A model generated the notes under the pieces. The model searched no databases. It was not told the origin of the DNA and saw only the letters and a program-made list of their open reading frames with translations. Below, piece by piece: positions 12,200-27,341 of a stretch of 64,000 bases of DNA (position 1 is its first letter; the number at the start of each line of letters is the position of its first letter). The translations under genes and the position numbers were made by a program. This DNA is from Mangrovibacterium sp. Its GTDB lineage: Bacteria; Bacteroidota; Bacteroidia; Bacteroidales; Prolixibacteraceae. The stretch covers positions 12,732-76,731 of the forward strand of contig JBFXKJ010000001.1 of the NCBI GenBank assembly GCA_050173895.1, read 5' to 3'.

Positions 12200-13648
12200 A
12201 TGAACCGGAAAAAAGACGCAATCCTGGTGTTTAACGGAAGCCTGCTGGCACTGCTGGCTGTCGCTTCCTGCACATCATACGGAAAAACTGCCGGCTCTGA
12301 AGGGAGGCCGAATATTATTCTGATCAATATTGACGATATGGGCTGGAGGGATGTCGGGTTCATGGGATCGGAATATTACGAAACGCCCAACCTCGACAGG
12401 CTGGCCAGGCAGGGAATCATTTTCACCCAGGCTTATGCGGCAGCGGCAAACTGTGCACCCAGCAGGGCATGCCTGATGAGCGGGCAATGGACGCCCCGGC
12501 ACGGCATTTATACAGTCGATTCCTCAGCACGTGGCAAAAGCCGCGACCGCAAACTTATTCCCACGCCGAATAATACGACCCTTCCGGAAGAACAGGTAAC
12601 CCTCGCTGAAGCGCTTCAGGCTGCCGGTTATACAACATGCATTGCAGGGAAATGGCACCTGAGCGACAATCCGCTTAGCCAGGGATTTGATGTCAACATT
12701 GGCGGTTGCCATGCCGGAAGTCCCGGGAGCTACTATCCTCCTTACACCAAGGTACCGTTGGAAGCACCCTCCTCCGATTATTGCCTGACCGATCTGATCA
12801 TGGACAAGACGCTGGAATTTGTGGATTCAGTGAAGAGCCGGCCTTTTTTTCTATACTATTCGCCTTATGCTGTACACACGCCGATTCATCCGGTGAAGAA
12901 ATTGCTGACGAAATATGAGAAAAAACCGGTCTGGAACGGACAGGAAAATGCCGGCTATGCCACGATGGTCGAAAACCTGGATACGCAGGTCGGGAGGTTA
13001 ATTCGCTTGTTGGAAAAGTCGGGGAAACTGGAAAATACCTTTATTCTGTTCACATCGGACAATGGCGGCCATTATGGTATTACCAGGCAGCTGCCCCTGC
13101 GTTCGGGCAAAGGTGCCTATTATGAAGGTGGCATCCGGGAGCCGATGTTTGTTTTCTGGAAAGGAAAAATTAAACCAGGTACCAGGACAGAGGTTCCGGC
13201 GACGAACCTCGATTTTTATCCAACCTTGCTTGATGTGGCGGGAGTGGAAAAGCCTGCCGGCAAATTGCTGGACGGACAAAGCCTGATGCCCGTTTTAACC
13301 GGAACAGGATCATTGGAAGGGCGCCCGCTATTCTGGCATTTCCCGATCTATCTGCAGGCTTATATGAAGAAGGGCGATCCGACGCAGGATCCCTTGTTCC
13401 GGACCCGCCCCGGATCGGCCGTGCGTTTGGGTGACTGGAAGTTAATTCAGTATTTCGAGAACAATGATCTTGAACTATACAATTTGAAGGAAGACATTGG
13501 CGAAAAAAATAACCTGGCAAAATCGAATGCCGAAAAGACCAAAGAGCTTCTGTCGCTGTTGAATGAATGGCGGTCAAAAACCAATGCGCCGGTTCCGGAC
13601 GAACTGAATCCCGGATTCGACCCGCGGCCGGAATCTTCCAGTTGGTAA
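12200..13648 (+). CDS. Cys-type sulfatase (arylsulfatase A family), lipoprotein-like signal
   Basis: The formylglycine motif CAPSRACLMSG is present along with the N-terminal metal-binding motif NIDDMG. The signal is LLAVASCTS. Confidence 0.85.
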   Translation: MNRKKDAILVFNGSLLALLAVASCTSYGKTAGSEGRPNIILINIDDMGWRDVGFMGSEYYETPNLDRLARQGIIFTQAYAAAANCAPSRACLMSGQWTPRHGIYTVDSSARGKSRDRKLIPTPNNTTLPEEQVTLAEALQAAGYTTCIAGKWHLSDNPLSQGFDVNIGGCHAGSPGSYYPPYTKVPLEAPSSDYCLTDLIMDKTLEFVDSVKSRPFFLYYSPYAVHTPIHPVKKLLTKYEKKPVWNGQENAGYATMVENLDTQVGRLIRLLEKSGKLENTFILFTSDNGGHYGITRQLPLRSGKGAYYEGGIREPMFVFWKGKIKPGTRTEVPATNLDFYPTLLDVAGVEKPAGKLLDGQSLMPVLTGTGSLEGRPLFWHFPIYLQAYMKKGDPTQDPLFRTRPGSAVRLGDWKLIQYFENNDLELYNLKEDIGEKNNLAKSNAEKTKELLSLLNEWRSKTNAPVPDELNPGFDPRPESSSW

Positions 13649-13845
13649 GCGTCTAAAGGCGATGACATATAATACGTAGATTGCAGTTGGTTAAATTAAA
13701 AATACAAACATATGAAACGAGCATGGAAGCCGCGGTATCCGCCCGAGCCAATGTTTATAGGCGAGTTCCATACGTCGATGTCCTATAGAAAAGTGATGTA
13801 GTTTAGTACGCAAATTATACACAGCTAATTTGAAATGAAAAACAT

Positions 13846-15963
13846 ATGAAACCCAGTCAAGTGATCATTTCGTCGCTGGCGCTCGGAACGATCTTTAGTT
13901 CCGGTGCTGCAGGAGAGAGCAAACAAACGCAGGTTGCAAAACCGCAACAGCCAAACATCCTTTTTATTTTAGTTGATGATATGGGATATGGCGATCTGGG
14001 TGCTCTGTTTCAAAATCAGCGTGCAAAGGCCAACGATCGAAGCGAACCATGGGAGTTGTCACCTAACCTGGATAAAATGGCTTCCGAAGGTGTTTTGTTG
14101 TCTCAACAATATTGTGCGGCTCCGGTTTGCGCACCCTCACGCGCGTCCCTGTTGCTTGGAGTAAGCCAGGGGCATGCTAACGTCAGAGACAATCAGTTCG
14201 ATAAAGCCCTGGAAAACAACCATACCATTGCTTCTGCCTTGCACGAAATTGGTTATTCAACCGCTGCTTTTGGCAAATGGGGATTGCAGGGCAGTGACCG
14301 CTGGGACGAAAACGGTTCTGAATGGCCGGCGCATCCGCTAAACCGGGGATTTGACTATTTTCTGGGATACATGCGCCATTCGGATGGGCATGAACATTAT
14401 CCCCGGGAAGGCGTGTACCGGGGGAAGAAAGAAGTATGGGAAAACCGGACAAACATTGCGGCCGGCCTGGATAAGTGCTATACGGCCGACTTATGGACGG
14501 CCGCTGCGAAACGTTGGATCGTTCAACATGAGAAGGGACCGGATTCTGAGAAGCCATTCTTCATTTATCTTGCCTTTGACACGCCCCATGCTGTTTTGGA
14601 ATTGCCCACGCAGGCCTATCCCCGGGGTGCAGGCCTTAGGGGAGGAATGCAATGGACCGGGAAAAAAGGAGAGATGATCAGCACGGCATCCGGAACAGTC
14701 GATAGTTGGGTTCATCCTGATTACGCCGGGGCCACCTGGGATGATGACAAGGATCCTTCAACGCCGGAAGTTGCATGGCCGGAAGTATATAAGCGCTATG
14801 CCACCGCAACAAGACGCGTCGACAGTGCTGTGGGCGACATCATGCAATTGTTGAAAGACCTGAATATTGACGACAATACGATCATCGTGTTTACTTCAGA
14901 TAACGGACCTTCCAGAGAATCGTATCTTCCGGAGCAATACCGGCCCAATACGCCCGATTTCTTCAATAGTTTCGGACCCTTTGACGGAATTAAACGCGAC
15001 TGCTGGGAGGGAGGCGTACGAATGCCAGTAATTGCCCGCTGGCCCGGACATATCCGCGCGGGAGAAGAAATCAGATCTGCCAGTGCTTCGTACGACTGGG
15101 CACCTACTTTTCTGGATGCAGCCGGTGTTCCGGCTCCCGCCCGGCTGGACGGTGTCTCCTTGTTGCCATCGCTCACGGGCAAGGGAGATCAGCAGGATCC
15201 TGTCGTTTACGTGGAATATCATGTAGGCGGGAGAACTCCGGCATACGCTGAGTTTGATCCGTCACATCAGGGAAGAAAGCAAAATCAAATGCAAAAGATC
15301 CGAATGGGAAATTTTGTAGGGGTGAGGTACGATATTCAGTCGGCCAATGATGACTTCGAAATTTACGACGTCAGCAAAGATCCGCAGGAAATTAACAACC
15401 TGGCGCGGAACCCCGGAATGGACACCTTGCAGCAATGGATGAAAGCCAAAGTGCTGCAGGTACGCCGGCCCAATTCAACAGCCCCGAGGCCTTATGACCA
15501 TGAAAACATCCCTGCCGTCAGCGCCAGGAAAACGACCGCGGGCATTCACTGGTCAGCCTATGAAGGCGATTTTCCCTGGGTTCCGCAAGTAATCACCCTG
15601 AAACCATCGGCTTCCGGAACAACAGGAAAACCAGATGTTGGTGTCAGCAGGTCAAACGGTAATTTTGCCATGCTTTTCGAGGGGTACCTGAACATTCCTG
15701 AGGACGGGGAATATACTTTTTACCTTACTGCTGGTCATGGCGCACTGATGCGGATTCACGAAGCGACCCTGATCTGTGCCGATTTCGGCTACACTCCAGG
15801 GGAAGAAAAGCAGGCACCGATTAATCTGAAGGCTGGTCTCCATCCTTTCCGGATTTATTATCTGGGGAAAGCCAGCGAAAAACAATCGCTGGAGTTGAAG
15901 TGGAGCGGTCCGGGTATTGAAAAAGAAACTGTTCCGGAAGATGCATTCTGTTATGCGGAATGA
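13846..15963 (+). CDS. Cys-type sulfatase with a C-terminal PA14-like carbohydrate-binding domain
   Basis: Contains VDDMGYGD and CAPSRASLLLG. The C-terminal ~140 aa (YEGDF...GEYTFYL...GLHPFRIYY...LELKWSGPG) resemble a PA14 domain. Confidence 0.8.
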   Translation: MKPSQVIISSLALGTIFSSGAAGESKQTQVAKPQQPNILFILVDDMGYGDLGALFQNQRAKANDRSEPWELSPNLDKMASEGVLLSQQYCAAPVCAPSRASLLLGVSQGHANVRDNQFDKALENNHTIASALHEIGYSTAAFGKWGLQGSDRWDENGSEWPAHPLNRGFDYFLGYMRHSDGHEHYPREGVYRGKKEVWENRTNIAAGLDKCYTADLWTAAAKRWIVQHEKGPDSEKPFFIYLAFDTPHAVLELPTQAYPRGAGLRGGMQWTGKKGEMISTASGTVDSWVHPDYAGATWDDDKDPSTPEVAWPEVYKRYATATRRVDSAVGDIMQLLKDLNIDDNTIIVFTSDNGPSRESYLPEQYRPNTPDFFNSFGPFDGIKRDCWEGGVRMPVIARWPGHIRAGEEIRSASASYDWAPTFLDAAGVPAPARLDGVSLLPSLTGKGDQQDPVVYVEYHVGGRTPAYAEFDPSHQGRKQNQMQKIRMGNFVGVRYDIQSANDDFEIYDVSKDPQEINNLARNPGMDTLQQWMKAKVLQVRRPNSTAPRPYDHENIPAVSARKTTAGIHWSAYEGDFPWVPQVITLKPSASGTTGKPDVGVSRSNGNFAMLFEGYLNIPEDGEYTFYLTAGHGALMRIHEATLICADFGYTPGEEKQAPINLKAGLHPFRIYYLGKASEKQSLELKWSGPGIEKETVPEDAFCYAE

Positions 15964-15983: not shown

Positions 15984-16736
15984 TCATTTAGCTTTTCGTA
16001 ACAAGGCCAGTACCCCGTTTATAAAGGTGAGCGGATGCACCGGGTTGCCGGGTATATACAGGTCGACCGGATATCTGGAGAGAAAGCTGCGGTCGAGCGC
16101 CTCGCTGTCGGCAAAAATACCGCCGCTGATGGCATCGGTACCGGCCAGGATTACCAGCTTCGGATCAGGGACTGCCTGATAGCAGATCTCGAGTGCCCTG
16201 GCCATGTTTACGGTGATAGGACCGGTGATGACGATGCCGTCGGCGTGCCGCGGCGATGCCACAAAATCGATCCCGAACCGGCTCATATCGAACTGGACAT
16301 TGTTTGCGGCATTCAGCTCCCATTCGCAACTGTTGTCGCCGCCCGCCGATACCTGCCGGAGCTTCAGCGAGTGGCCGAACAACCGGTGAATTTCTTTGCG
16401 CACCCGTGCAGCGTCAAGCTTAACCGGTTGCCCGTCGCCTTCAGCAATAATTAATCGGCTTCGGTGGTTCGTCGAAAGTTTATAGTCGGTGGTAAAACGG
16501 ACCTTGTCCGGAAACTGAACAGCACATTCGCCGCAGAAGGTACATTTTCCCAGGTCGATCCGTACGGGACTCACCGCAATAGCCTGAGTCGGGCAAATTT
16601 CAGCCAGTGCTGCTTCATCCACGCTTTCTCTTGAAATGACCGGCCGTCCGCGGAAAATACCCGGCACTTTGGCTGTTGTCACATCAGGAATGAACTGCTT
16701 GCCCTGATGCCATAAGATTTTGATATTGTCGATCAT
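15984..16736 (-). CDS. Ferredoxin-domain / NuoB-HycG-like 'small subunit' fusion with degenerate cluster ligands
   Basis: The N-terminus has ICPTQAI...CTFCGECAVQFP. The C-terminal part is colinear with NuoB/HycG (RFGIDFVASPRHADGIVITGPIT, PDPKLVILAG, PVDLYIPG). Confidence 0.75.
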   Translation of the reverse strand: MIDNIKILWHQGKQFIPDVTTAKVPGIFRGRPVISRESVDEAALAEICPTQAIAVSPVRIDLGKCTFCGECAVQFPDKVRFTTDYKLSTNHRSRLIIAEGDGQPVKLDAARVRKEIHRLFGHSLKLRQVSAGGDNSCEWELNAANNVQFDMSRFGIDFVASPRHADGIVITGPITVNMARALEICYQAVPDPKLVILAGTDAISGGIFADSEALDRSFLSRYPVDLYIPGNPVHPLTFINGVLALLRKAK

Positions 16737-16749
16737 GATGCTTTCAGTT

Positions 16750-18252
16750 TTAGAGGTCGTGCCCGCAGTACGATAAATTAAAGCTTTTGTTGCAGATAGG
16801 GAAGTCGGATATTTCGTTGTTCCTGACTGCCTGGGCCAGCGCCATCCAGTTGTGATGCGAAGGATCCTTGATCTTATAAACGATCAGATCGCCTTGCTGA
16901 CCGGTGACCGCACAATGGCAGATTTCGCCCCGCCAGCCTTCCACCAGCGAAAGCGTAAAAGTCTCCTTGCCGGGCGAAAGACTGAAATTTTCAGGTTTTT
17001 TAAATTCCGGTATGTCGCTGATCAGCTTGCGGGCATAACCAATCGACTGCAGGATTTCTTCTTTTCTGATCTGCGCCCGGGAATACACGTCGCCGTGATG
17101 CTTGATCACCGGCGAATGATTAATTGCAATGCCATACAGGTCGTGCGGATGCGACAAGCGGATGTCGCGGTTCAGGCCGCTCATCCGGGCGGCCATCCCC
17201 ACCGTGCCGATCCCGCAAACCTGCTCATAGCTGACCACTCCGGTCTTCTCCATTCGTGACAGCGCGCTGGGCAGCTTAAAGAGTTTCCTGCTCATCTCGG
17301 TAAAGTCAGCTTCGTAGGTCTCCAGCACGGTATTCAGCCTTGCCGCGAGTTCGGCAGAAAAAGGATAATTGATCTTTCCGGCCCTGATCAATCCTTTCGA
17401 CAACCGGTTGCCACCCCATTCCTGCATGAAATTGATGATCGGCGTACGCAGCCGCCCAAAGACGGCATTGCCTAACTGATAGGCAATATCGGCGCAAATA
17501 GCCGAAAGGTCGCCTGTATGGATGGCAATACGTTCCAGTTCGAGGGCCAGGGTGCGGGCAAATTTCAGTGACCGGTCAGGTTCGTACCCGCAGAGGCTTT
17601 CCCACAGGTTTACAAAGGCTGTGGTATGTCCAACAGTGGTGTCGCCGGCAATGTTTTCAGCCAGGGTAGTGCGTTCCAAAAGCTTTTTCTTTTGCAGGAA
17701 CAGCTGTTCGATGCCCCGGTGCTGATAACCTAACTGGATCTCCAGATGCATGATCTGCTCCCCGTTGCAGATGAAGCGGAAATGTCCCGGCTCGATCACT
17801 CCCGCGTGGATCGGACCCACGCCGACTTCATGGAGTTCTTCGCTTTCGGCCCGGCAGAACGGATAATTTTCCGCCTTTTCGGCCGTGTCAGCCCTGTTTT
17901 GCGCATACCGCACCGGTTTTAACCAGGGATGGTCGCTGTACAGAATCCCGAAGTTTTCATGAATCTCCCGTTCGAATTTTTCAAAATTCGTGTTTTGGGC
18001 CGTCAGGGAGGCCAGGGTAGTCCTGGCATCAACAACAGTGGAAGAGATCAGGATTTCATGCCGGAGATCATCGGCGATACAACAAATGAGCCTGATCCGG
18101 CCGGCGTCGCTGTAACCGAAATAGTTCACGCAATGTCTCTCCGGACCGCTTTTCATCAGGTCAAGATTGGCTTCCATGAACAGCCGGTAGGGATGTTCGG
18201 GAATATCCTTTAAGGCAATCGGCTGATTATTATGAATGGGAATATACAACAT
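16750..18252 (-). CDS. Fused NuoC-NuoD / HycE-like 'large subunit' lacking the N-terminal [NiFe] CxxC
   Basis: FEREIHENFGI marks the NuoC-like part. GPIHAGVIEPGHFRF...LGYQHRGIEQL is the group 4 hydrogenase/NuoD signature. The L1 position reads ENIAGDTTVGH and the C-terminus reads NLSYCGHDL. Confidence 0.8.
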   Translation of the reverse strand: MLYIPIHNNQPIALKDIPEHPYRLFMEANLDLMKSGPERHCVNYFGYSDAGRIRLICCIADDLRHEILISSTVVDARTTLASLTAQNTNFEKFEREIHENFGILYSDHPWLKPVRYAQNRADTAEKAENYPFCRAESEELHEVGVGPIHAGVIEPGHFRFICNGEQIMHLEIQLGYQHRGIEQLFLQKKKLLERTTLAENIAGDTTVGHTTAFVNLWESLCGYEPDRSLKFARTLALELERIAIHTGDLSAICADIAYQLGNAVFGRLRTPIINFMQEWGGNRLSKGLIRAGKINYPFSAELAARLNTVLETYEADFTEMSRKLFKLPSALSRMEKTGVVSYEQVCGIGTVGMAARMSGLNRDIRLSHPHDLYGIAINHSPVIKHHGDVYSRAQIRKEEILQSIGYARKLISDIPEFKKPENFSLSPGKETFTLSLVEGWRGEICHCAVTGQQGDLIVYKIKDPSHHNWMALAQAVRNNEISDFPICNKSFNLSYCGHDL

Positions 18253-18256
18253 GGCA

Positions 18257-19684
18257 TCAGGATATAAGTTTTACGGCATCCTGCAGCAGGGTCACCAGCA
18301 GGGCAGGAGGGGCATAAGCCAGATAAACGGCAACGATCAACAGCAGGTACTGGGGCAGCGATTCCCATGCTTTTATTGCCGGCAGTTGTTTCTCGTCGAT
18401 ATGAATGGGGGGAATAAACAGCAACCTGAAAATATTGGAGCCAAATCCCCAGATGATCATCGTGAGCAGGATCAGCACCAGAGCGAGAATGAGGATATTA
18501 TGTGCTTCGAACAAAGACTGGAAGATCATGAATTCACTGACAAACAAGCCTGAAGGCGGCATGGCAGTCGCAGAGAAAAATCCCAGCAGCAAAACGAGGG
18601 CCCCGGCTTTGTTGTATTTAAAATAACTACCCATATCATAGATGCTTTTACTCTGGTACACCCGGTAAACCTGGTTAAACTGGAAGAAAAGGCTGGGTTT
18701 CACAAACGAGTGGAGCACCACATGAAGAATGGCCGCATAAACGCCCACACCCCCGCAGGCAAGTCCCAGAACAACAAGTCCCATATGCTCGATCCCCGAA
18801 TAGGCAAGCATGCGCTTGATATTTTTAATGCGGGTCATGTATACCGTGGCTACAAAGACCGACAGCACCGCAGCGAATAGCATGACCGTACCGGCCCATT
18901 TCAATAAAGGCGTATGGGAGAAGACAGCGTAAAAACGAAATACCCCGATAAATCCCATGTTCATCAGCACACTGGCCAAAAGCGCGCCTGCGGGTGCCGG
19001 CGCTTTGTCTTTGGCATCAATTCCTGCTGTATACATCGGAACAAGTCCCAGTTTTGCAGTGAAACCGGTAAAGATGAACAGAAAAGCGAGCTTCAGCCAA
19101 AAAGGATTTAACTGTGAGGCATGAGCATATAAGGTATCGAACGACAAATCATTAATTCCGGCCTGTTTCACGGCGAGACTCAGGAAAAGAATGCCGATGT
19201 AAATGAAAGTAATGCTGATGGCGCAGATGAAAACATATTTCCAGGCACCTTCGAGCGCACGGATGTTCCGGTGGTGGTAAATCAATGCGGAGGCGCTCAG
19301 GGTGGTGATCTCGGCAAAGATCCAGATCACCGCAATGTGATTGGAAATATAAGCCATCGAACAAGCCGAAATCAGCATCACCATGGCCGCAAAAAACAAA
19401 CCTCTCGATTTGGGAGTTTCATCGTGCAGCGCGATATACCGGTACCCGTGCCAGAAGGCAGGAATACTGACCGCGCTGATGGTCAGGAGCATGAGCACGC
19501 CCAGGGAATCGGGTTTGAAAAATCCGAACTGCGTATGATTCAGATCATTCAGCTCATTGATGCTGAAAAACCATAATAAAGCGAGGTAGATGACCAGAAG
19601 TAAATAGTTGACAGCCGTATTCCGGTTGAAGAACAATCCTCCGCCAATGATCAGGGTCCCTATCAAAAATATACTGACAATCAT
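18257..19684 (-). CDS. NuoM/N- or HyfF-like antiporter-type membrane subunit (divergent)
   Basis: 475 aa polytopic membrane protein colinear with the proton-conducting transporter family (PF00361-like). It starts 4 nt after the upstream gene. Confidence 0.7.
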   Translation of the reverse strand: MIVSIFLIGTLIIGGGLFFNRNTAVNYLLLVIYLALLWFFSINELNDLNHTQFGFFKPDSLGVLMLLTISAVSIPAFWHGYRYIALHDETPKSRGLFFAAMVMLISACSMAYISNHIAVIWIFAEITTLSASALIYHHRNIRALEGAWKYVFICAISITFIYIGILFLSLAVKQAGINDLSFDTLYAHASQLNPFWLKLAFLFIFTGFTAKLGLVPMYTAGIDAKDKAPAPAGALLASVLMNMGFIGVFRFYAVFSHTPLLKWAGTVMLFAAVLSVFVATVYMTRIKNIKRMLAYSGIEHMGLVVLGLACGGVGVYAAILHVVLHSFVKPSLFFQFNQVYRVYQSKSIYDMGSYFKYNKAGALVLLLGFFSATAMPPSGLFVSEFMIFQSLFEAHNILILALVLILLTMIIWGFGSNIFRLLFIPPIHIDEKQLPAIKAWESLPQYLLLIVAVYLAYAPPALLVTLLQDAVKLIS

Positions 19685-19688: not shown

Positions 19689-20318
19689 TTAGTCTTTCAG
19701 GTTGCGTAACAGGTTAACGTCCGGGTTTTTCAGCACATCGCCGATCTTGTTGAAGAACACGCCAAGGATGAGCACGCTGGCAAAAATATCGAGCATGATG
19801 CCCAGGTTTACCAGCATCGGCATTTCATTCCCCACCGCGAGCGATAAAATAAATACGCCGTTTTCGATGAACAGGTAGCCGATTACGTGGGTAATGATTT
19901 TCTTGCGCGATATGATCAGGTATAAGCCGGTGAAAAGCGTCGACAGGGCCACCACAAAGTACGTTTTATCCAGGTTTTCTTCTCCGATTGCATGCGAAAG
20001 GATGATGGTAGCCACGAAAATCAGCGATACGATGATCAGCGACAGGAAGTTGGGCAGGTAGGGCTCCGCTTCGCGGGTGATTTCATTTCGCCGGATTACA
20101 TAATTGATGAACCAGGGAACAGCAATGGCTTTAAAACCAATTGTTTCAAGCAAAATGAGTGTCAGGTTGACATGATTCACTTCAGTAAGGGTCAGATACG
20201 TCACGCCGAAAAGGATAAATCCCTGAAACACCAGGATCCGCAGATAGGTCAGCAGCCGGTTGGCGATGCTGACATAGAGCAGCGACATGGAAAGTGCGAT
20301 GAGGAGTATATCGGTCAT
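19689..20318 (-). CDS. HyfE-like small membrane subunit
   Basis: About 209 aa and roughly 7 TM segments. I prefer the ATG at 20318 (MTDILLIAL...) because it lies 1 nt after the upstream TGA (20320-20322), whereas the track start at 20354 overlaps the upstream gene. Confidence 0.6.
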   Translation of the reverse strand: MTDILLIALSMSLLYVSIANRLLTYLRILVFQGFILFGVTYLTLTEVNHVNLTLILLETIGFKAIAVPWFINYVIRRNEITREAEPYLPNFLSLIIVSLIFVATIILSHAIGEENLDKTYFVVALSTLFTGLYLIISRKKIITHVIGYLFIENGVFILSLAVGNEMPMLVNLGIMLDIFASVLILGVFFNKIGDVLKNPDVNLLRNLKD

Positions 20319-20319: not shown

Positions 20320-21225
20320 TCAAATAAATTTTCCCATAACAAGCAATACGCCAAAGAATATCAGCGAGGCTACCGAGGTCAGGATAAAAATGAACTGCGG
20401 GTTATGTCCGAGCCTGAAACGAGCCATAAACGATTCGATCACTCCGACAGCAACTGCAAAGCCTGCCTGAACGCCAAAGAACACGGGGATTGAAAAAAGA
20501 TAAGGCATCGACCCGATAAAAAAGTTGGAAATGATGGCACCGTACAAGGCAAATTTCAGGTACGAAGTGTAGGTGATCAGTCCCAGATCGAATCCGCTGT
20601 TGTCCAAAACCATCACTTCATGGATCATCGTCAGTTCCAGGTGGGTTTTGGGGTCATCGACCGGCATTCGGCTGTTCTCGATCATTGCGATAAAAATGAA
20701 AACGAAGGCTGCAAGTGCTCCCAACATGTACGAAACCGACGAACCATAGTGAAGCGCGCTGAAGATGCCATGGAAGGACGTTTGTCCGGTGAAAAGGGCG
20801 AACGATCCCATCAGGACGAAGAAGGCAGGCTCGGCCAGCATCGAATACAGGGCTTCCCGGGCCGCGCCCATTCCTTCAAAACTGCTTCCGGTATCGAGGG
20901 CGGAAACGATCATCAGAAATTTGCCCATGGCCAGTGTATAGGCAAACAGGACAAAGTCACCATCGAATGAAATCAGCCCGGGATGATTCCCGTGGGGAAC
21001 CATCAACACAGCCATCAGTACCGACGACAGGTACACGCTGGGGGCGATTTGAAAGATCAGGCTGGTTGTATGGCTGTACACGGAATCTTTTTTCCACAGT
21101 CGCACCACATCTTTCATCGGCTGAAAGATCCCGGGCCCTTTGCGCCCGGAAGTGAAGCTTTTGGTCCGGATTACGATCCCGGTAAAAAACAAGCTTGTTA
21201 TAAGAATAAGGATGAAACTGACCAT
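20320..21225 (-). CDS. NuoH/HycD-like membrane subunit
   Basis: 301 aa polytopic protein. The N-terminal pattern GPGIFQPMKDVVRLWKK is colinear with the QP.AD..KL motif of the NuoH/HycD family. Confidence 0.7.
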   Translation of the reverse strand: MVSFILILITSLFFTGIVIRTKSFTSGRKGPGIFQPMKDVVRLWKKDSVYSHTTSLIFQIAPSVYLSSVLMAVLMVPHGNHPGLISFDGDFVLFAYTLAMGKFLMIVSALDTGSSFEGMGAAREALYSMLAEPAFFVLMGSFALFTGQTSFHGIFSALHYGSSVSYMLGALAAFVFIFIAMIENSRMPVDDPKTHLELTMIHEVMVLDNSGFDLGLITYTSYLKFALYGAIISNFFIGSMPYLFSIPVFFGVQAGFAVAVGVIESFMARFRLGHNPQFIFILTSVASLIFFGVLLVMGKFI

Positions 21226-21227: not shown

Positions 21228-23285
21228 CTACAGGTGGTTTAAGAATTCGATCAGGATCCTGATTTTGCTGGCGACAAGCGGCAGCAAGACCGCGGCACTG
21301 ATAAAAATGAAGCCGTATAAAATGTAAGCCTGGATGTTGCCGTTCTGAAGAAATCCAAACCGCCGCAGGAATTTCCTCGATAATTGCACAGGCTTATCAA
21401 TGAGCAGGATTTCGATCCAGTCGCCCGGATGTGTTTCCTGCTCGATCCGGTCCGGGTAAAGGCCGGCGGCGTCTTTCTTGTGTTTTTTGATGAACAGCAC
21501 CGGTTCGGCCAGTTTGCGGTAGGTCCGGATGAAGGAGGAGGCCGTATATTGCATTTTTGCGGTGTCTCCGGTATAGCCACAGCCCCAGGTTGGGCTGGCG
21601 TTCTGCCGGCGTTGGCTGACAAGCCGGGTCCGCAGCAGGTAGATCACGGAACTGAGCGCCACGAACCCCAGGGAATACCAGCCTACCTGCATCAGGGTTC
21701 CAAGCAGTTCATGTATTTGGAGATATGATTCGGTCGTGGCCGCCGGCAGGTATAAAGCAACTGTTTTTGCCAGTGGTATCGCCAGGATGAAGGGGAATAA
21801 TCCGATTGCAACAATGGCCGCTGCAATCAGGTATAAGGGCAGCACATTCCCCCCTCTTCCGGCCTCAGGTCTCCGGTCTCCCTCTTCCGGTTTTCTGTCT
21901 CCGGTTTCCTGTCTCTGCCCCCCGAGAAATACGATTCCGAATGCTTTTGTGAAGCAGATCAGCGCCAGTCCTCCGATAAGCACCAGGGCAAGGATTGAAA
22001 ACAACATGGCCAGGATAAACAGGAACCGTTCGGACGAAAGGCCTTTGAACAGCCCGCTGTAAATAAAGAATTCGGAAACGAAGCCGTTGAAAGGAGGCAG
22101 TCCGCAGATGGCGAGCGAGCCAATCAGAAAGAGAGCTGCCGTATGGGGGATCCGTTTGATCAGTCCGCCCAGCGCTTCAATGTTGAGGGTATGCCGGATC
22201 AGGTAGACATTTCCGGCACCGAAAAACAGGAGCGACTTGAAAAGCGAATGGTTTAGCGTGTGGAGCAGGGCCCCGCCAAATCCGGCCACGGCCAGTGTAT
22301 TCGATTCATATCCCAGGCCGAGGCAACCCAGGCCGATGCCGATGCCAATAATGCCAATATTTTCGATGCTGTGATAAGCCAGCAGCTTTTTGAGGTTGTG
22401 CTGGACGATGGCCAACATCACACCATAGACCCCTGTCACGACCGAAAATGCCAGCACCAGATAGCCGATGGTGACCATGTCGGTTTTGATCAGCATCAGC
22501 ATTCTCAGAATCCCGTAAATGCCGATTTTAATGATCACGCCCGACATGATCCCGGAAATATGGGCCGGGGCAGCAGGGTGGGCCAGGGGCAGCCAGGTAT
22601 GGAAGGGTACAAATCCGGCTTTGATCCCGAAGCCAAAAAAGAACAGGGCGAATAAACCTATTCCCGCCAGAGTGGGCTGGATAGCGCTGAATTTCGTGAT
22701 TGCAGTGAAGTCGAACGAGCCGGTTTTGATCTTCACCCACAGAAAGGCGATGGTGAGAAGAAGGATGCCAATATGTGACTGGATCAGGTAGTTCAAGCCC
22801 GCTTTCATCGTTTCCTTTTTATAGTGCTCAAAAATGACCACAATGAAAGATGATAAGGCCATGATTTCCCACAGAACCAGCAGCATCAGGCTGTTCTGAA
22901 TCGTGCACAGATCGACGAGAGAAGTGAAAAGCAACAGGAATGCAATCAGGTGCATGGTGATGTTGTCGGCCTGGTCGCGGTATGCCTGCATATACCTGAA
23001 GCCATACCAGCCGCCGGTGAAGAAGGTAAAGCTGATCATCAGGATGAACCACGCGGAGAGGGAATCAATCCGTACGGGAATTTCTCCGGTGACCATTGAG
23101 CCAGGATAAACGATTTCCAGCGGACCGCTTGTAAAAACGGATAACGACAACATAATGCCGATAAAGGCGAGCATACCGGTGACACCCAGTGTCAGGATGC
23201 CCCTTCCTTTGGTCGTTAAAAAAGGAATACAGAGAATGGTAAGAATTGCAAGCAGGTTGAACAGTTCAAGCAGCAACTTATTCAT
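21228..23285 (-). CDS. NuoL/HyfB-like antiporter-type membrane subunit
   Basis: Has the canonical motif FVPFHTWLPLAHPAAPAHISG and a HyfB-like C-terminal segment (TWGCGY...QYTASSF). The ATG at 23285 (MNKLLLELF) is preferred because the track start at 23369 is a TTG inside the putative promoter. Confidence 0.75.
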   Translation of the reverse strand: MNKLLLELFNLLAILTILCIPFLTTKGRGILTLGVTGMLAFIGIMLSLSVFTSGPLEIVYPGSMVTGEIPVRIDSLSAWFILMISFTFFTGGWYGFRYMQAYRDQADNITMHLIAFLLLFTSLVDLCTIQNSLMLLVLWEIMALSSFIVVIFEHYKKETMKAGLNYLIQSHIGILLLTIAFLWVKIKTGSFDFTAITKFSAIQPTLAGIGLFALFFFGFGIKAGFVPFHTWLPLAHPAAPAHISGIMSGVIIKIGIYGILRMLMLIKTDMVTIGYLVLAFSVVTGVYGVMLAIVQHNLKKLLAYHSIENIGIIGIGIGLGCLGLGYESNTLAVAGFGGALLHTLNHSLFKSLLFFGAGNVYLIRHTLNIEALGGLIKRIPHTAALFLIGSLAICGLPPFNGFVSEFFIYSGLFKGLSSERFLFILAMLFSILALVLIGGLALICFTKAFGIVFLGGQRQETGDRKPEEGDRRPEAGRGGNVLPLYLIAAAIVAIGLFPFILAIPLAKTVALYLPAATTESYLQIHELLGTLMQVGWYSLGFVALSSVIYLLRTRLVSQRRQNASPTWGCGYTGDTAKMQYTASSFIRTYRKLAEPVLFIKKHKKDAAGLYPDRIEQETHPGDWIEILLIDKPVQLSRKFLRRFGFLQNGNIQAYILYGFIFISAAVLLPLVASKIRILIEFLNHL

Positions 23286-23358
23286 GATCAATTTGTTAGT
23301 TTGTCCGGTGAAATGGAAATAACTTTCAACCCGGTACGGATGACAGTTATTTCGCGAG

Positions 23359-23366
23359 CAAAAGTA
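23359..23366 (-). promoter_or_regulatory. Candidate Bacteroidota -7 promoter element (TACTTTTG matches TAnnTTTG) for the six-gene operon
   Basis: Motif read on the minus strand about 75 nt upstream of the ATG at 23285. This is a single motif match only. Confidence 0.3.
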
Positions 23367-23478
23367 CAAAAAATGCAGGATGCGATTTCTAATTTGCGTC
23401 CTGAATTGTTGTGATCATAAAAATTAAGGAGTTGTCAATTCCCGGCTGATCCCCTGCAGACCCACATTTATCGGGATG

Positions 23479-24255
23479 CTATTCCCTGGCCAGTTCAATC
23501 CAGACGGGAGCATGGTCGCTCGATTTTTCCCATCCTCTCACTTCGCGGTCAACTCCGGCCGCCTGGAGGCGGTTGCTGATTGACGGACTGAGCAAAAAGT
23601 GGTCAATACGCAGGCCGGCATCGCGGCCGTAGGAATTGCGGAAATAATCCCAGAAAGTGTAGATACGCTGATCCGGATATATTTTTCGGATGGCATCGGT
23701 CCAGCCCTGACCGACCAGGTTTTTGTAGGCCAGGCGCACTTCGGGCAGAAAGAGTGCATCTTTTACCCAGCTTTCCGGCTTGTACACGTCCATTTCGGTC
23801 GGGATCACGTTAAAATCGCCGGTCATCACAGCCGGAATTCCTGAAGCGATGAGGCCTGCCGCATGTTCAGTCAGCCGCTGGAACCACCGCAGCTTGTATT
23901 CGAATTTGGGGCCGGGGGCAGGATTACCGTTGGGCAGGTACAGGCAGCAAATGAGGATCCCGTTGATGGTGGCTTCGATATACCGGCTGTTCACGTCGTC
24001 CGGATCGCCTGGGAGGAGGCGTCTGACTTCGGCCGGTTCCTGTCCCTTCGATAAAATGGCAACCCCGTTCCAGCTTTTCTGTCCGTGCCACAGGGCATGG
24101 TATCCCGCTTCGCGAATGGCTTCAAGCGGAAATTTTTCCTGTGGCGCCTTCAGTTCCTGTAAACACACCACCTCGGGCGATGTTTCACTGAGCCATCGCA
24201 ACAACACGGGCAGCCGCCCGTTTACCCCGTTCACGTTATAGGTTGCGATCTTCAT
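23479..24255 (-). CDS. xth: Exodeoxyribonuclease III (AP endonuclease)
   Basis: The MKIATYNVNG...VCLQELK N-terminus and the C-terminal SDHAPV motif support the call. The ATG at 24255 is preferred over the track start at 24402, which would overlap ftcD. Confidence 0.85.
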   Translation of the reverse strand: MKIATYNVNGVNGRLPVLLRWLSETSPEVVCLQELKAPQEKFPLEAIREAGYHALWHGQKSWNGVAILSKGQEPAEVRRLLPGDPDDVNSRYIEATINGILICCLYLPNGNPAPGPKFEYKLRWFQRLTEHAAGLIASGIPAVMTGDFNVIPTEMDVYKPESWVKDALFLPEVRLAYKNLVGQGWTDAIRKIYPDQRIYTFWDYFRNSYGRDAGLRIDHFLLSPSISNRLQAAGVDREVRGWEKSSDHAPVWIELARE

Positions 24256-24301
24256 AGACAAAATTTTCCTGTTAAGGTACGATAATTCTGCAGGCCGGGG
24301 G

Positions 24302-26008
24302 TCATATCCCGATTTTTTTGCCGACGATTTGCAGGATTTCCGTTTCAAGGGCAATGGCTTTTTTCTCCAGGTCATGGGCTTCTTTAAGAACCGCTGAAAC
24401 AAATACCTTGTCTTTCAGTCCCCCGGCGTTAATCTTAACGTTCAGGGCAGCCCCGAGAACGGCCGAGCGGGCGGCAAGCGCGCCGACGCCGGCATCGGAA
24501 ACCGAGTTCGGATTACCCTGTTCGGCCATGGCTTTGATCAGCTCCATCGATTGAAAGCTGAACTGCATCACCTTCAGGGGAACGCCGATGGCCTGGCGGG
24601 TTGCCGACTGGATCGCTTCTTCCCGCTGCGCCTTTTCTTCTTCGCTTGCTTTCGGCATTTTGAAGGCTGCCATCAGCGTGTTGAAGGCCTCCGTATCCTG
24701 ACTGGTGAGCAGCAGAAGCCGATCGTGAATGGCTTTCCCTTTTTCGGCCCAGGCGGCAAATTCCTCCCAACGGCTGTCCCATCCTTTTTTATGGGACGAC
24801 AAGTTAGCGACCATGGTTCCCAGGGCCGCACCCAGCGCTCCCATGCAGGCAGAAACGGAGCCGCCGCCGGGGGCCGGCGATTCGGAAGCAGTTTCTTCAA
24901 CGAATTTTTTAACACTCAGTTCTGTCAGTTTCTTCTGACCGGCTTCTTCGATCAGGTATTCAATGATCCTTTTTTGCGGGTCGAAGGGAGCCAGATCATC
25001 CAGTCCCATTGATTTTATGGCAATTTTCAGGAGCTCCTCGTCGGCAACCCCGGCCGAGCGTTTTTGCTTGTGCAGGAAGTATCTTCCGGCTTCGAGTATG
25101 GGTTGCAGCGGGATCAGACCGATCAGTTCGGAACCGGTTACCCGGATCCCCCGTACGGCGGCCCGTTCACAGGCTGCCTCAAATACCTGGTGAACAGAGG
25201 TGACGGTGATGTCGGTGATGTTGAACGACAACTGGGCGATGCCGTATTCCTCGATATACCAGCCGATGCCTTTTACCCCTTTCAGCATGCCGGGTTCATA
25301 AACCGGATTGCCGGCTTCATCGGTTAATAGCTTTCCGGTAAGCGGATCACCCTCCCGTTTCAGTCGTCCTTTTTCGCGGATGTCGAAGGCAACGGCGTTG
25401 GCCAGCCGGGTTGAAGTGGTGTTCAGGTTCACGTTGTAAGCTACCAGGAAGTTCCGTGCGCTGAGCGCTGTCGCACCGGTGCGGGCTACGGCGGCATTGA
25501 ATTCGGCCGGGCCGAAGTCGGGTTTCCAGAGCGGGTCGGGCAACTTCCGGCACAGCCCTTCGTATTCTCCGGCGCGGCAGTTCGCCAGGTTCTTCCGGAT
25601 TTCAGAAGTGGCCGTATTCTCATATAAGTATATCGGGATCCCCAGTTCTTCGCCAATCCGCTTCCCCAGCAGATTGGCATATCCGATCGTTTCTTCCATG
25701 GTAATTCCGGTCACCGGGATCAGGGGCAGCACGTCGGTGGCTCCGAAACGGGGGTGCTTTCCCCTGTGCCGGCGCATATCGATCAGTTCGGCGGCTTTTT
25801 TCACTGCCCGGAAGGCTGCTTCACAAACCTCTTCCGGCTCGCCGACAAAGGTCATGACCGTTCGGTTGGTCGCTTTGCCGGGGTCGACGTTCAGCAGTTT
25901 GACACCGTCGACCGAGCGGATCGCTTCGGCGATCTGGCTGATGGTATTCAGATTATTCCCCTCGCTGAAGTTAGGGACGCATTCGATGATCCTTTGCATG
26001 CTGTTCAT
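24302..26008 (-). CDS. ftcD: Bifunctional glutamate formimidoyltransferase / formimidoyltetrahydrofolate cyclodeaminase
   Basis: 568 aa. The N-terminus IECVPNFSEG is typical of formiminotransferase and the C-terminal ~200 aa form a helical cyclodeaminase-like domain. It sits downstream of hutHUI. Confidence 0.85.
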   Translation of the reverse strand: MNSMQRIIECVPNFSEGNNLNTISQIAEAIRSVDGVKLLNVDPGKATNRTVMTFVGEPEEVCEAAFRAVKKAAELIDMRRHRGKHPRFGATDVLPLIPVTGITMEETIGYANLLGKRIGEELGIPIYLYENTATSEIRKNLANCRAGEYEGLCRKLPDPLWKPDFGPAEFNAAVARTGATALSARNFLVAYNVNLNTTSTRLANAVAFDIREKGRLKREGDPLTGKLLTDEAGNPVYEPGMLKGVKGIGWYIEEYGIAQLSFNITDITVTSVHQVFEAACERAAVRGIRVTGSELIGLIPLQPILEAGRYFLHKQKRSAGVADEELLKIAIKSMGLDDLAPFDPQKRIIEYLIEEAGQKKLTELSVKKFVEETASESPAPGGGSVSACMGALGAALGTMVANLSSHKKGWDSRWEEFAAWAEKGKAIHDRLLLLTSQDTEAFNTLMAAFKMPKASEEEKAQREEAIQSATRQAIGVPLKVMQFSFQSMELIKAMAEQGNPNSVSDAGVGALAARSAVLGAALNVKINAGGLKDKVFVSAVLKEAHDLEKKAIALETEILQIVGKKIGI

Positions 26009-26044
26009 TTTTTTCCCTGCCGCGGACAGTTTTCATTCCTGCCC

Positions 26045-27328: not shown

Positions 27329-27341
27329 AATTAACAGTTAA

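What the first reader, a model, noticed from the sequence alone, without database searches (positions are those of the whole stretch)
16750..18252. The large subunit keeps the group-4 hydrogenase scaffold but replaces the [NiFe] L1 CxxC with A-G-D-T
The protein has the hallmark GPIHAGVIEPGHFRF...LGYQHRGIEQL segment.

- N-terminal site: about 15 residues after that segment, group 4 large subunits carry E-R-[IV]-C-G-[IV]-C-x-x-x-H. That pattern is from my memory of HycE, EchE and MbhL. This protein reads A-E-N-I-A-G-D-T-T-V-G-H instead (aa 198-209, nt 17626-17661, verified codon by codon). Both N-terminal nickel-ligand cysteines are therefore replaced, by Ala and Thr.
- C-terminal site: the protein ends ...FPICNKSFNLSYCGHDL rather than with the canonical D-P-C-x-x-C-x-x-[RH]. 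At most one cysteine lies at a comparable position.

The sequence otherwise looks intact, as a 500-aa open frame with the NuoC-like domain retained. That argues for neofunctionalisation rather than simple decay.
Basis: partly seen in the sequence, partly recalled or inferred. Interest (0 to 1): 0.75.

Follow-up and report, generated by a model that had tools for sequence, protein, structure and literature searches.

The report
Hydrogenase-like Ehr complex without nickel site
This gene encodes the large subunit of an "Ehr" complex, a known but functionally unsolved membrane machine that descends from energy-converting hydrogenases and has lost its nickel-iron site; this Bacteroidota version has also lost most of its iron-sulfur clusters, so it probably moves ions without making or using hydrogen.

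Summary
The 500-aa ORF lies on the minus strand at 16750-18252. It aligns over its full length with HycE, HyfG and MbhL. All four [NiFe] cysteines are replaced in register (A202, T205, S494, G497).

This is not decay. dN/dS is about 0.06. The replacement motifs E-x-I-[AS]-G-D-[ST] and N-L-S-Y-x-G-x-D-L recur in nearly all of the 150 most similar 50%-identity clusters across many phyla.

The gene is the fifth of a six-gene operon: HyfB-, NuoH-, HyfE- and HyfF-like subunits, the large subunit, and a ferredoxin-NuoB fusion. The same gene order recurs in 80 genomes, including Geobacter. This is the Ehr ("energy-converting hydrogenase-related") complex, described in 2005 and 2013, whose function is still unknown. 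The headline finding is therefore already a defining trait of a known family.

Beyond the finding, in a Bacteroidota clade including this window the small subunit has also lost the proximal [4Fe-4S] ligands (C→D, C→D, C→N). It keeps only one ferredoxin-type cluster. The membrane proton-path residues are intact. The most likely role is ion translocation not driven by electron transfer to the old active site. This role is inferred, not shown.

The parts
21228..23285 (-). HyfB/NuoL-like antiporter-type membrane subunit (EhrA-like), 685 aa from ATG 23285. The listed TTG start at 23369 is probably spurious.
   Evidence: NCBIfam 'hydrogenase 4 subunit B', 495 bits, below the curated cut-off of 667. 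PF00361. Keeps the TM5 Glu, TM7 Lys, TM8 Lys, TM11 H..H...K, TM12 Glu and the HyfB/HycC-type C-terminal W-x-C-G-Y segment. The start was read from the sequence.
20320..21225 (-). NuoH/HyfC/HycD-like membrane subunit (EhrB-like), 301 aa
   Evidence: PF00146, E=3.7e-32. Aligned with HyfC, HycD and NuoH.
20602..20670 (-). Loop R186-D208 of the NuoH-like subunit: RMPVDDPKTHLELTMIHEVMVLD. This is an Ehr-wide signature that replaces the P-F-D-x-x-E-A-E-Q-E-L loop of hydrogenases and complex I.
   Evidence: Near-invariant in about 70 loci from many phyla. It differs from E. coli HyfC, HycD and NuoH.
19689..20318 (-). HyfE-like small membrane subunit (EhrC-like), 209 aa
   Evidence: NCBIfam 'hydrogenase 4 membrane subunit' HyfE, E=2e-16, 60.5 bits, below the cut-off of 136. 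Alignment with HyfE and NuoK. The 209-aa gene model matches those called in relatives.
18257..19684 (-). HyfF/NuoN-like antiporter-type membrane subunit (EhrD-like), 475 aa
   Evidence: PF00361. Best NCBIfam hits are 'hydrogenase membrane subunit' and 'hydrogenase 4 subunit F', below their curated cut-offs. Keeps the TM5 Glu, TM7 Lys and TM12 Glu.
16750..18252 (-). Large subunit (EhrL-like), a NuoC-NuoD/HycE-like fusion of 500 aa. This is the reported finding.
   Evidence: dN/dS 0.06.
17773..17817 (-). Beta1-beta2 loop GPIHAGVIEPGHFRF (aa 146-160), the most conserved segment of the family
   Evidence: It is a low-confidence, probably flexible, loop in the model (pLDDT<50 at 149-153).
17626..17661 (-). 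L1-equivalent AENIAGDTTVGH (aa 198-209). A202 and T205 replace the two N-terminal Ni ligands. G203 and D204 are near-invariant.
16753..16782 (-). L2-equivalent FNLSYCGHDL (aa 491-500), the protein's C-terminus. S494 and G497 replace the two C-terminal ligands. There is no C-terminal extension for protease processing.
15984..16736 (-). Small subunit (EhrS-like), 250 aa: an N-terminal half of a HycF/HyfH-type ferredoxin fused to a NuoB/HycG-like domain
   Evidence: PF01058, E=9e-21, plus a weak Fer4 hit. Alignments A2 and A3.
16506..16604 (-). Single retained [4Fe-4S] motif: C48(P) plus C65-x2-C68-x2-C71. The first CxxCxxC and the last CP of the ancestral 2x[4Fe-4S] domain are lost.
   Evidence: These four Cys are conserved in 68 of the 71 small subunits examined.
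16044..16337 (-). Former proximal-cluster (N2-type) site. HycG C-GG-C-NG-C, GAC and PGCP become A-GG-D134-NS-C137, GTD201 and PGN231P.
   Evidence: The D-x-D/E-N/A pattern is found in 29 Bacteroidota-clade loci, against CCCC in 41 other loci.
23359..23366 (-). TACTTTTG, a match to the Bacteroidetes -7 promoter consensus TAnnTTTG, 74 nt upstream of the HyfB-like ATG
   Evidence: Read from the sequence. The consensus is from general knowledge and the site was not tested.

Best explanation
The ORF encodes the large subunit of an Ehr (energy-converting-hydrogenase-related) complex in a Prolixibacteraceae-like Bacteroidota genome.

Operon. It is the fifth gene of a tightly packed six-gene operon (23285 to 15984, minus strand). 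The order is: HyfB-like, NuoH-like, HyfE-like and HyfF-like membrane subunits, then the large subunit, then a ferredoxin-NuoB fusion small subunit.

Shown:
- All four [NiFe] cysteine ligands are replaced by a family-wide conserved polar motif, so the protein cannot be a [NiFe] hydrogenase.
- All six genes are under strong purifying selection.
- In this Bacteroidota branch the small subunit has also lost three of the four ligands of the proximal [4Fe-4S] cluster.
- It has also lost one of the two ferredoxin clusters. Exactly one four-Cys cluster motif remains.
- Both antiporter-like subunits keep the charged residues of the proton path.

Inferred (about 0.4 probability). Without a proximal cluster, electrons cannot reach the former active site. 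The complex therefore most likely acts as an H+/cation-translocating machine that is not driven by redox chemistry at that site. The remodelled pocket consists of the E154/H157 loop, D204, and the NuoH-like DDPxTHLELTMIHE loop. It would serve as an ion- or ligand-binding gate. The single remaining cluster would be structural or a redox sensor.

Confidence split: about 0.9 that this is an Ehr-type non-hydrogenase; about 0.4 for the redox-independent ion-translocation mechanism.
For: Homology and register:
- HycE E=4e-34, MbhL E=7e-29, with L1 aligned residue by residue.
- MAFFT with HycE, HyfG and NuoCD agrees.
- AlphaFold model pLDDT 92.2; best PDB fold match is HycE 7z0s_E at TM 0.89, then NuoCD at 0.87.

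Family:
- 490 50%-identity clusters at E<1e-30.
- 147 of the top 150 lack the CxxC pairs and carry [AS]-G-D-[ST] and N-L-S-Y-x-G-x-D-L.
- The Cys-less clade is monophyletic in 88 of 100 bootstraps.

Operon:
- Pfam and NCBIfam assignments.
- Gene order B-C-E-F-L-S in nearly all of 80 loci from more than 10 phyla, including Geobacter. This matches the EhrA/C/L/S naming of GSU0739-0745.

Selection: dN/dS is 0.04-0.06 for five of the six genes and 0.08-0.16 for the small subunit.

Cofactor loss in the small subunit.

Proton-path residues kept.

No maturation or partner genes:
- No hypA-F, hycI or hycH in the window or in 1.31 Mb around 83 related cassettes.
- No conserved redox partner among the neighbours.

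Literature: Ehr complexes lack the CxxC motifs and their function is unknown.
Against: - Nothing here measures activity; the mechanism rests on absence of ligands.
- One [4Fe-4S] motif is strictly conserved, which hints that some redox or sensing role persists.
- Asp can ligate Fe-S clusters, so the conserved D134/D201 site might bind an unusual cofactor.
- Most Ehr relatives outside this clade keep a full three-cluster chain. This suggests that the ancestral Ehr function is redox-driven.
- The link to the named Geobacter Ehr is indirect. It rests on a Geobacter sp. MAG at 40% identity, with orthologues in cultured Geobacter. No source names these proteins 'Ehr'.
- The tree is neighbour-joining and has few reference hydrogenases.
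- Only the 64-kb window, not the whole genome, could be searched for hyp genes.
Confidence: 0.6

Rival explanations
1. Redox-driven Ehr. The complex still couples electron transfer to ion translocation, as Mbh, Mbs/Mbx and FHL do. Electrons would come from ferredoxin or an unlinked dehydrogenase, pass through the retained [4Fe-4S] cluster, and reach an unknown acceptor bound in the remodelled pocket.
For: - The four Cys of one ferredoxin-type cluster are invariant in the clade.
- 41 of 71 relatives keep the complete proximal cluster, and many keep both ferredoxin clusters.
- The literature proposes redox coupling for Ehr, for example FDH-Ehr.
- Ehr subunits are more abundant in formate-grown Geobacter.
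Against: - In this clade three of the four proximal-cluster ligands are D, D and N, and the fourth position varies (C/T/V/A/H/I).
- The remaining cluster would sit too far from the pocket for electron transfer. This distance argument comes from complex I geometry recalled from memory.
- No formate dehydrogenase, NuoEFG or other redox partner is conserved next to the cassette in 80 loci.
Confidence: 0.25
2. Energy-coupled non-redox catalysis. The remodelled pocket (D204, E154/H157, and the His/Asp/Glu-rich NuoH-like loop DDPxTHLELTMIHE) would bind a metal such as Zn. It would catalyse a proton-linked reaction such as vectorial CO2 hydration, by analogy with cyanobacterial NDH-1/CupA or DabAB.
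For: - The acidic/His-rich signatures are family-wide and near-invariant in two subunits that meet at the old active site.
- SulP/STAS anion (bicarbonate/sulfate-type) transporters lie next to the cassette in 5 loci from 3 phyla.
Against: - There is no carbonic-anhydrase-like domain.
- SulP adjacency occurs in only 5 of 80 loci and not in this window.
- The metal-binding idea is pure inference from residue types.
Confidence: 0.1
3. Complex-I-type quinone reductase, with a NuoD-like quinone site in place of the NiFe site.
For: - The best Pfam hit is Complex1_49kDa.
- The fold matches NuoCD at TM 0.87.
- Bacteroidota use menaquinone (general knowledge).
Against: - NCBIfam NuoD scores 130 bits against a cut-off of 360.
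- The NuoD Tyr position in the L1 region is G203.
- There are no N2 ligands and no NuoEFG-like genes in the operon.
- The protein groups with group-4 hydrogenases, not NuoCD.
Confidence: 0.03
4. A decaying hydrogenase remnant, or a functional [NiFe] hydrogenase with non-canonical ligands.
For: Databases annotate homologues as 'Ni,Fe-hydrogenase III large subunit' or 'CO-induced hydrogenase'.
Against: - dN/dS is 0.06 and all six frames are intact.
- The replacement motif is conserved across phyla.
- None of the four Cys ligands remains.
- There is no C-terminal processing extension.
- No hyp or hycI genes are nearby.
Confidence: 0.02

Closest known systems
[quoted passage not shown] Geobacter sulfurreducens GSU0739-0745 (EhrA-1/A-2/B/C/D/L/S), M. 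tuberculosis Rv0082-0087, and Nitrospira, Sulfobacillus and Melainabacteria Ehr
   Same: - The large subunit is homologous to group-4 [NiFe] large subunits but lacks both CxxC motifs.
- The gene set and order are the same: NuoL-like, NuoH-like, HyfE-like, NuoN-like, large, small.
- It shares the family signatures [AS]-G-D-[ST], N-L-S-Y-x-G-x-D-L and the NuoH-like DDPxTHLELTMIHE loop.
- Function is unknown in every case.
   Different: - The Geobacter-type and most other Ehr small subunits keep all four proximal [4Fe-4S] cysteines, and often two ferredoxin clusters.
- This window and 28 other Bacteroidota-clade loci have D/x/D/N at the proximal site and only one cluster motif.
- This window has a single NuoL-like gene, where Geobacter and several relatives have two.
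- It has no HTH-PTS_EIIA regulator upstream.
E. coli hydrogenase-4 (HyfBCDEFGHI) and hydrogenase-3/FHL (HycBCDEFG; PDB 7Z0S)
   Same: - Best sequence and fold match, to HycE.
- HyfB-, HyfC-, HyfE-, HyfF-, HyfG- and HyfI-like subunits in the Hyf order.
- NuoC-NuoD fused large subunit.
- The EPGHFR loop is conserved.
   Different: - No NiFe ligands, no proximal cluster, no HyfD, and no separate HyfA or HyfH.
- Half a HyfH is fused to the small subunit.
- No C-terminal extension or HycI site, and no formate dehydrogenase or hyp genes nearby.
Mbs/Mbx of Pyrococcus furiosus (PDB 6U8Y), the one hydrogenase-derived complex with a lost NiFe site and a known function (sulfane reduction)
   Same: A group-4 descendant that gave up H2 chemistry yet remains a membrane ion-translocating complex.
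   Different: - Only distant similarity: MbsL E=2.4e-7 against 4e-34 for HycE.
- From general knowledge, Mbs keeps its Fe-S chain, keeps some of the four Cys, and has 13 subunits with an Mrp module.
Respiratory complex I NuoCD/NuoB/NuoH/NuoL-N
   Same: Same modular architecture and fold. The antiporter-like proton-path residues are conserved.
   Different: No quinone-site Tyr, no N2 cluster, no NADH module, and scores below the NuoD and NuoB family cut-offs.
Mrp-type cation/proton antiporters
   Same: The proposed working mode is ion exchange by NuoL/M/N-like subunits without electron transfer. The same Proton_antipo_M family is present.
   Different: Mrp has no NuoB, NuoD or NuoH-like subunits. 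Here a complete, strongly conserved peripheral arm is kept.

Membership tests
Ehr complex | Large subunit homologous to the group-4 [NiFe]-hydrogenase large subunit | tested here: met
   HycE E=4e-34 and MbhL E=7e-29. Foldseek best hit 7z0s_E, TM 0.89.
Ehr complex | Absence of the L1 RxCGxCxxxH and L2 DPCxxCxx[HR] nickel-binding motifs | tested here: met
   A202, T205, S494 and G497 occupy the four Cys positions.
Ehr complex | Encoded together with NuoH-like, NuoL/M/N-like, HyfE-like and NuoB-like subunits | tested here: met
   Six-gene operon. The same order is found in 80 loci.
Ehr complex | Groups with recognised Ehr large subunits rather than with functional hydrogenases | tested here: met
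   - 40% identity over the full length to a Geobacter sp. cassette with the 7-gene Ehr layout.
- That protein has orthologues in G. grbiciae and G. pickeringii.
- The Cys-less clade is supported in 88 of 100 bootstraps.
- This is indirect: no sequence labelled 'Ehr' was available, and the tree is neighbour-joining only.
Ehr complex | No dependence on the Hyp maturation machinery | tested here: inconclusive
   No hypA-F or hycI in the 64-kb window or in 1.31 Mb of related loci. The whole genome could not be searched.
Functional group 4 [NiFe] hydrogenase | Four Cys ligands (L1 CxxC and L2 CxxC) | tested here: not met
   None of the four is present. This holds in 120 of 120 close homologues.
Functional group 4 [NiFe] hydrogenase | Small subunit with four Cys for the proximal [4Fe-4S] cluster | tested here: not met
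   The pattern is D134, C137, D201, N231.
Functional group 4 [NiFe] hydrogenase | C-terminal extension cleaved by a HycI-type protease (group 4a) | tested here: not met
   The protein ends at ...GHDL, level with the HycE cleavage region. No HycI homologue is nearby.
Complex I NuoD/NuoB | Scores above the NuoD and NuoB family thresholds | tested here: not met
   NuoD NF004739: 130 bits against a cut-off of 360. NuoB NF005012: 90 bits against 116.
Complex I NuoD/NuoB | Quinone-site Tyr in the L1-equivalent region and the N2 cluster Cys | tested here: not met
   E. coli NuoCD R-I-E-Y-L-G aligns with N-I-A-G-D-T, so Tyr aligns with G203. The N2 ligands are absent. The role of the Tyr is from general knowledge.
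Mbs/Mbx | Close homology to MbsL/MbxL and a 13-subunit Mrp-containing operon | tested here: not met
   MbsL 6u8y_L scores only E=2.4e-7. The operon has six genes.

The most novel reading that the evidence does not exclude
The Bacteroidota Ehr branch, which includes this window, would be a complex-I-like machine whose peripheral arm has been stripped of its catalytic metal site and of the cluster that feeds it.

It nevertheless stays under strong purifying selection. It keeps family-specific acidic/His-rich signatures at the interface of the large subunit and the NuoH-like subunit.

That would mean the conserved core function of Ehr is not electron delivery to the old active site. It would instead be a redox-independent process at a new site: ion or ligand gating, or an energy-coupled non-redox reaction. 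The single retained cluster would be a sensor or a structural element.

I found no description of this cofactor-stripped subtype in the papers I could read.
Probability: 0.3. Interest if true: 0.7.

Novelty: new variant of a known kind. Interest (0 to 1): 0.4.

Why it matters
Ehr complexes are widespread: at least 598 species genomes here, including Geobacter, Nitrospira, mycobacteria, and gut Alistipes and Rikenellaceae. They sit between hydrogenases and complex I in evolutionary schemes, yet they have had no assigned function for about 20 years.

Databases routinely mislabel them as 'Ni,Fe-hydrogenase III large subunit', 'NADH dehydrogenase subunit' or 'CO-induced hydrogenase'. This inflates inferred H2 metabolism in metagenomic surveys.

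A large Bacteroidota clade has dispensed with the proximal Fe-S cluster while keeping the membrane proton path and the Ehr-specific signatures. This is a natural experiment. It narrows the possible core function and points to cultivable hosts (Mangrovibacterium, Ancylomarina, Alistipes) in which that function can be tested.

The headline finding itself, loss of the L1 and L2 cysteines, is not new.

Tried and rejected
- The first literature query ('Ehr' at word start) returned only electronic-health-record papers. The later 'EhrL/EhrS' query was also mostly noise.
- Marreiros et al. 2013 (BBA) is not held. I therefore could not check whether loss of the small-subunit cluster in some Ehr complexes was already described.
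- A Biopython BLOSUM-distance bootstrap timed out. I replaced it with a numpy Kimura-distance neighbour-joining tree. No maximum-likelihood software was available.
- I searched with the Geobacter sp. large subunit hoping for a source name 'Ech-hydrogenase-related complex'. Only generic names came back.
- I looked for a conserved redox partner or maturation genes next to 83 cassettes. None was found.
- The recurrent neighbours were an HTH_17-PTS_EIIA_2 regulator (16 non-Bacteroidota loci), SulP transporters (5 loci), and sigma-54 two-component genes (the response regulator in 7 loci, the histidine kinase in 4). None of these is in this window.
- I considered and rejected a shifted CxxC, a pseudogene, NuoD and MbsL.
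- Residue-level 3D mapping of the substituted positions was not possible, because the structure tools return no coordinates.
- Searches for M. tuberculosis Rv0082-87 gave no functional resolution.
Full report
**Observation.**
The ORF at 16750-18252 is real. It lies on the minus strand, starts with ATG and encodes 500 aa. It contains GPIHAGVIEPGHFRF (aa 146-160), LGYQHRGIEQL (aa 174-184) and AENIAGDTTVGH (aa 198-209; nt 17626-17661), as reported.

phmmer against all PDB chains gives HycE of the E. coli formate hydrogenlyase (7z0s_E, E=4e-34) and MbhL (6cfw_L, E=7e-29) as the best hits. Both alignments put 'niagdttvgh' opposite 'rvcgicgfah' and 'rmcgicsfsh'. MAFFT with E. coli HycE, HyfG and NuoCD, fetched as loci L001-L003, gives the same register:
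- A202 and T205 replace the L1 cysteines.
- S494 and G497 replace the L2 cysteines.
- C496 lies between the two L2 positions. It is Ser in 37 of 120 close homologues.
- The protein ends where HycE is cleaved and has no C-terminal extension.

An AlphaFold2 model (pLDDT 92.2, pTM 0.93) matches HycE best (TM 0.89), then E. coli NuoCD (0.87). The NuoC-NuoD fused scaffold is therefore intact.

**Not decay.**
I computed Nei-Gojobori dN/dS against two orthologous loci, L087 (96% aa identity) and L086 (90%). The values are 0.061 and 0.062 for the large subunit and 0.04-0.055 for the three membrane genes tested (NuoH-like, HyfE-like and HyfF-like; the HyfB-like gene was not tested). The small subunit gives 0.158 against L087 and 0.076 against L086.

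**A large family with a conserved replacement motif.**
An exhaustive HMMER search of 1.84 billion representatives found 490 50%-identity clusters at E<1e-30. I aligned the best 150 (32-57% identity). All but three carry E-x-[IV]-[AS/C]-G-D-[ST] in place of R-x-C-G-x-C, and F-[ND]-L-S-Y-[CSA]-G-x-D-L in place of D-P-C-x-x-C-x-x-[RH]. Only P0216, P0219 and P0239 are true CxxC/CxxC proteins.

G203, D204, S494, Y495, G497, D499 and L500 are near-invariant or invariant in a 43-sequence family alignment. In a neighbour-joining tree rooted on NuoCD, the Cys-less proteins form one clade in 88 of 100 bootstraps. The three Cys-bearing proteins are the nearest sisters, and HycE/HyfG lie further out.

**Operon and identity.**
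The gene is fifth of six tightly spaced minus-strand genes:
- HyfB/NuoL-like, 21228-23285
- NuoH/HyfC-like, 20320-21225
- HyfE-like, 19689-20318
- HyfF/NuoN-like, 18257-19684
- large subunit, 16750-18252
- small subunit, 15984-16736

A scan of 185,579 species genomes found at least 598 loci. The best 80 span Bacteroidota, Spirochaetota, Melainabacteria, Victivallales, Ignavibacteria, Desulfobacterota (Geobacter, Electrothrix), Planctomycetota, Verrucomicrobiota, Omnitrophota, Myxococcota, Gemmatimonadota and Acidobacteriota. The order B(-B)-C-E-F-L-S is almost universal.

This is the composition of the Geobacter sulfurreducens Ehr cluster GSU0739-0745: EhrA-1 is NuoL-like, EhrC is HyfE-like, and EhrL and EhrS are the large and small subunits.

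[quoted passage not shown] It states repeatedly that their function is unknown (PMC6349859, PMC10284858, PMC4378227, PMC10432482, PMC6728331, PMC12542776).

The window protein is 40% identical over its full length to the large subunit of a Geobacter sp. cassette. That protein has orthologues in cultured Geobacter species.

**What goes beyond the finding: the small subunit.**
The 250-aa small subunit is a fusion of half a HycF/HyfH-type ferredoxin with a NuoB/HycG-like domain.

Against HycG, HyfI and NuoB, the proximal-cluster ligands are replaced as follows:
- C-G-G-C-N-G-C-E becomes A-G-G-D134-N-S-C137-E.
- G-A-C becomes G-T-D201.
- P-G-C-P becomes P-G-N231-P.

In the ferredoxin part the first CxxCxxC and the last CP are gone. 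C48(P) and C65-x2-C68-x2-C71 remain, which are the four ligands of exactly one cluster. From my memory of the Thermus complex I structure, this corresponds to N6b, the cluster next to N2.

Of the 71 small subunits recovered from the related loci and the window:
- 41 keep all four proximal cysteines. Many of these keep both ferredoxin clusters. They include Geobacter, Planctomycetota, Melainabacteria and Spirochaetota.
- 29 show D-x-[DE]-[NA], with a variable second position. All 29 fall in the Bacteroidota clade that contains the window.
- One Opitutae sequence shows an independent partial loss.
- One Bacteroidota sequence (L022) still has all the cysteines, so the loss is derived within the phylum.
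- The single ferredoxin-type cluster motif is conserved in 68 of 71.

**Membrane arm and coupling elements.**
Both antiporter-like subunits keep the TM5 Glu, TM7 Lys, the TM11 H-x3-H-x3-K and the TM12 Glu, as in HyfB, HyfF and NuoM. The HyfB-like subunit also keeps the TM8 Lys, and the HyfB-like C-terminal W-x-C-G-Y segment is present. The HyfE-like subunit matches E. coli HyfE at its acidic positions.

The NuoH-like subunit keeps the R-x-G-P...Q...D and other invariant positions. Its loop, which in hydrogenases and complex I reads P-F-D-x-x-E-A-E-Q-E-L, is here R-M-P-V-D-D-P-K-T-H-L-E-L-T-M-I-H-E-V-M-V-L-D. This version is almost invariant across all the Ehr loci, whatever the state of the small subunit.

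Together with the invariant EPGH loop and D204 of the large subunit, this points to a family-specific, acidic/His-rich remodelled site where the NiFe or quinone pocket used to be.

**Context.**
No hypA-F, hycI or hycH homologue occurs in the window or in 1.31 Mb around 83 related cassettes. Clustering of the flanking ORFs found no conserved dehydrogenase or other redox partner. The recurrent neighbours are:
- an HTH_17-PTS_EIIA_2 (PtsN-like) regulator directly upstream in 16 non-Bacteroidota loci;
- SulP/STAS transporters in 5 loci;
- sigma-54 two-component genes in a few loci.

None of these is present here. In the window the cassette sits between an exonuclease III gene plus hut genes on one side and two sulfatase genes on the other. 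Close relatives share only the upstream FTCD and exonuclease neighbourhood.

**Mechanism.**
Shown: the protein is not a [NiFe] hydrogenase; no proximal cluster can be ligated by cysteines; one cluster motif is kept; the proton-path residues are kept; and selection is strongly purifying.

Inferred: electrons cannot reach the former active site. The complex therefore most likely translocates H+ or cations without redox chemistry at that site. The remodelled pocket would act as an ion or ligand gate. The residual cluster would be structural or a sensor. I put this at about 0.4.

The main rival (about 0.25) is that redox coupling persists through the remaining cluster or through an unusual Asp-ligated cofactor. 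An energy-coupled non-redox reaction such as CO2 hydration is a speculative third option (about 0.1). A quinone reductase, a pseudogene and a cryptic hydrogenase are effectively excluded.

**Verdict.**
However, the finding as written re-describes the known Ehr family. The modest added value has three parts:
- the Bacteroidota subtype that has also lost its Fe-S chain;
- the Ehr-wide signature in the NuoH-like loop;
- the evidence that these proteins are widely mis-annotated as hydrogenases.

Noticed in passing
window 15984-16736 (-): The small subunit is a fusion of half a HycF/HyfH ferredoxin with a NuoB-like domain. Three of the four proximal [4Fe-4S] Cys are replaced by D134, D201 and N231. 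Only one ferredoxin-type cluster motif is left (C48, C65, C68, C71). The pattern is shared by 29 Bacteroidota-clade loci, while 41 other Ehr loci keep all the Cys.
   Followed up: yes
window 20602-20670 (-): The NuoH-like subunit carries RMPVDDPKTHLELTMIHEVMVLD where hydrogenases and complex I have PFDxxEAEQEL. This His/acid-rich version is almost invariant in Ehr cassettes from more than 10 phyla. It may be a diagnostic Ehr signature or a new binding site.
   Followed up: partly
window 23286-23369 (-): The 713-aa ORF of the HyfB-like gene starts at a TTG that lies inside the likely promoter. The real start is probably ATG 23285. A Bacteroidetes-type -7 element TAnnTTTG (TACTTTTG) sits at 23359-23366.
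   Followed up: partly
L031, L038, L046, L047, L051, L054, L059, L061, L063, L065, L067, L072, L078, L079, L081, L083 (about 700 nt directly upstream of the first Ehr gene): A protein of about 230 aa with HTH_17 and PTS_EIIA_2 (PtsN-like) domains precedes the Ehr cassette in 16 non-Bacteroidota genomes from several phyla. It is absent from this window and from the Bacteroidota clade. It suggests regulation by the nitrogen-PTS or ion status.
   Followed up: partly
L008, L021, L025, L063, L065: SulP-family anion transporters with a STAS domain lie next to the Ehr cassette in 5 loci from Bacteroidota, Verrucomicrobiota and Omnitrophota.
   Followed up: partly
L006, L008, L009, L011, L013, L014, L017, L018, L039, L054, L067, L072, L078, L083: Many relatives carry two tandem HyfB/NuoL-like genes, as in Geobacter EhrA-1/A-2. 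This window, L004 and L086 have one.
   Followed up: no
window 24302-30798 (-): A histidine-utilisation gene set lies just upstream on the same strand: FTCD-like 24302-26008, imidazolonepropionase-like 26045-27328, urocanase-like 27444-29129 and histidine ammonia-lyase-like 29098-30798. An exonuclease III-like gene (23479-24402) lies between it and the Ehr operon. FTCD adjacency is shared with close relatives L004 and L086 only. These identifications were made by eye from the translations, except FTCD and Exo_endo_phos, which rest on the Pfam assignments precomputed for the orthologous genes in relatives L004 and L086, not on a scan of the window proteins themselves.
   Followed up: no
window 12200-15963 (+): Two sulfatase-like genes (482 and 705 aa) converge on the end of the Ehr operon. 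They were judged from sequence motifs only.
   Followed up: no
P0001-P0120, P0271-P0390 (database names): Ehr large subunits are annotated in public sources as 'Ni,Fe-hydrogenase III large subunit', 'NADH-quinone oxidoreductase subunit C', 'NADH dehydrogenase subunit', 'carbon monoxide-induced hydrogenase' or 'hypothetical protein'. None is named Ehr.
   Followed up: partly
P0132, P0141-P0143, P0146, P0150, P0159, P0161; loci L037, L040, L042, L043, L045, L048, L050, L052, L053, L060 (Melainabacteria and relatives): A subset of Ehr large subunits keeps only the first L1 cysteine (I-C-G-D-S). This may be an intermediate state or a residue put to a new use.
   Followed up: no
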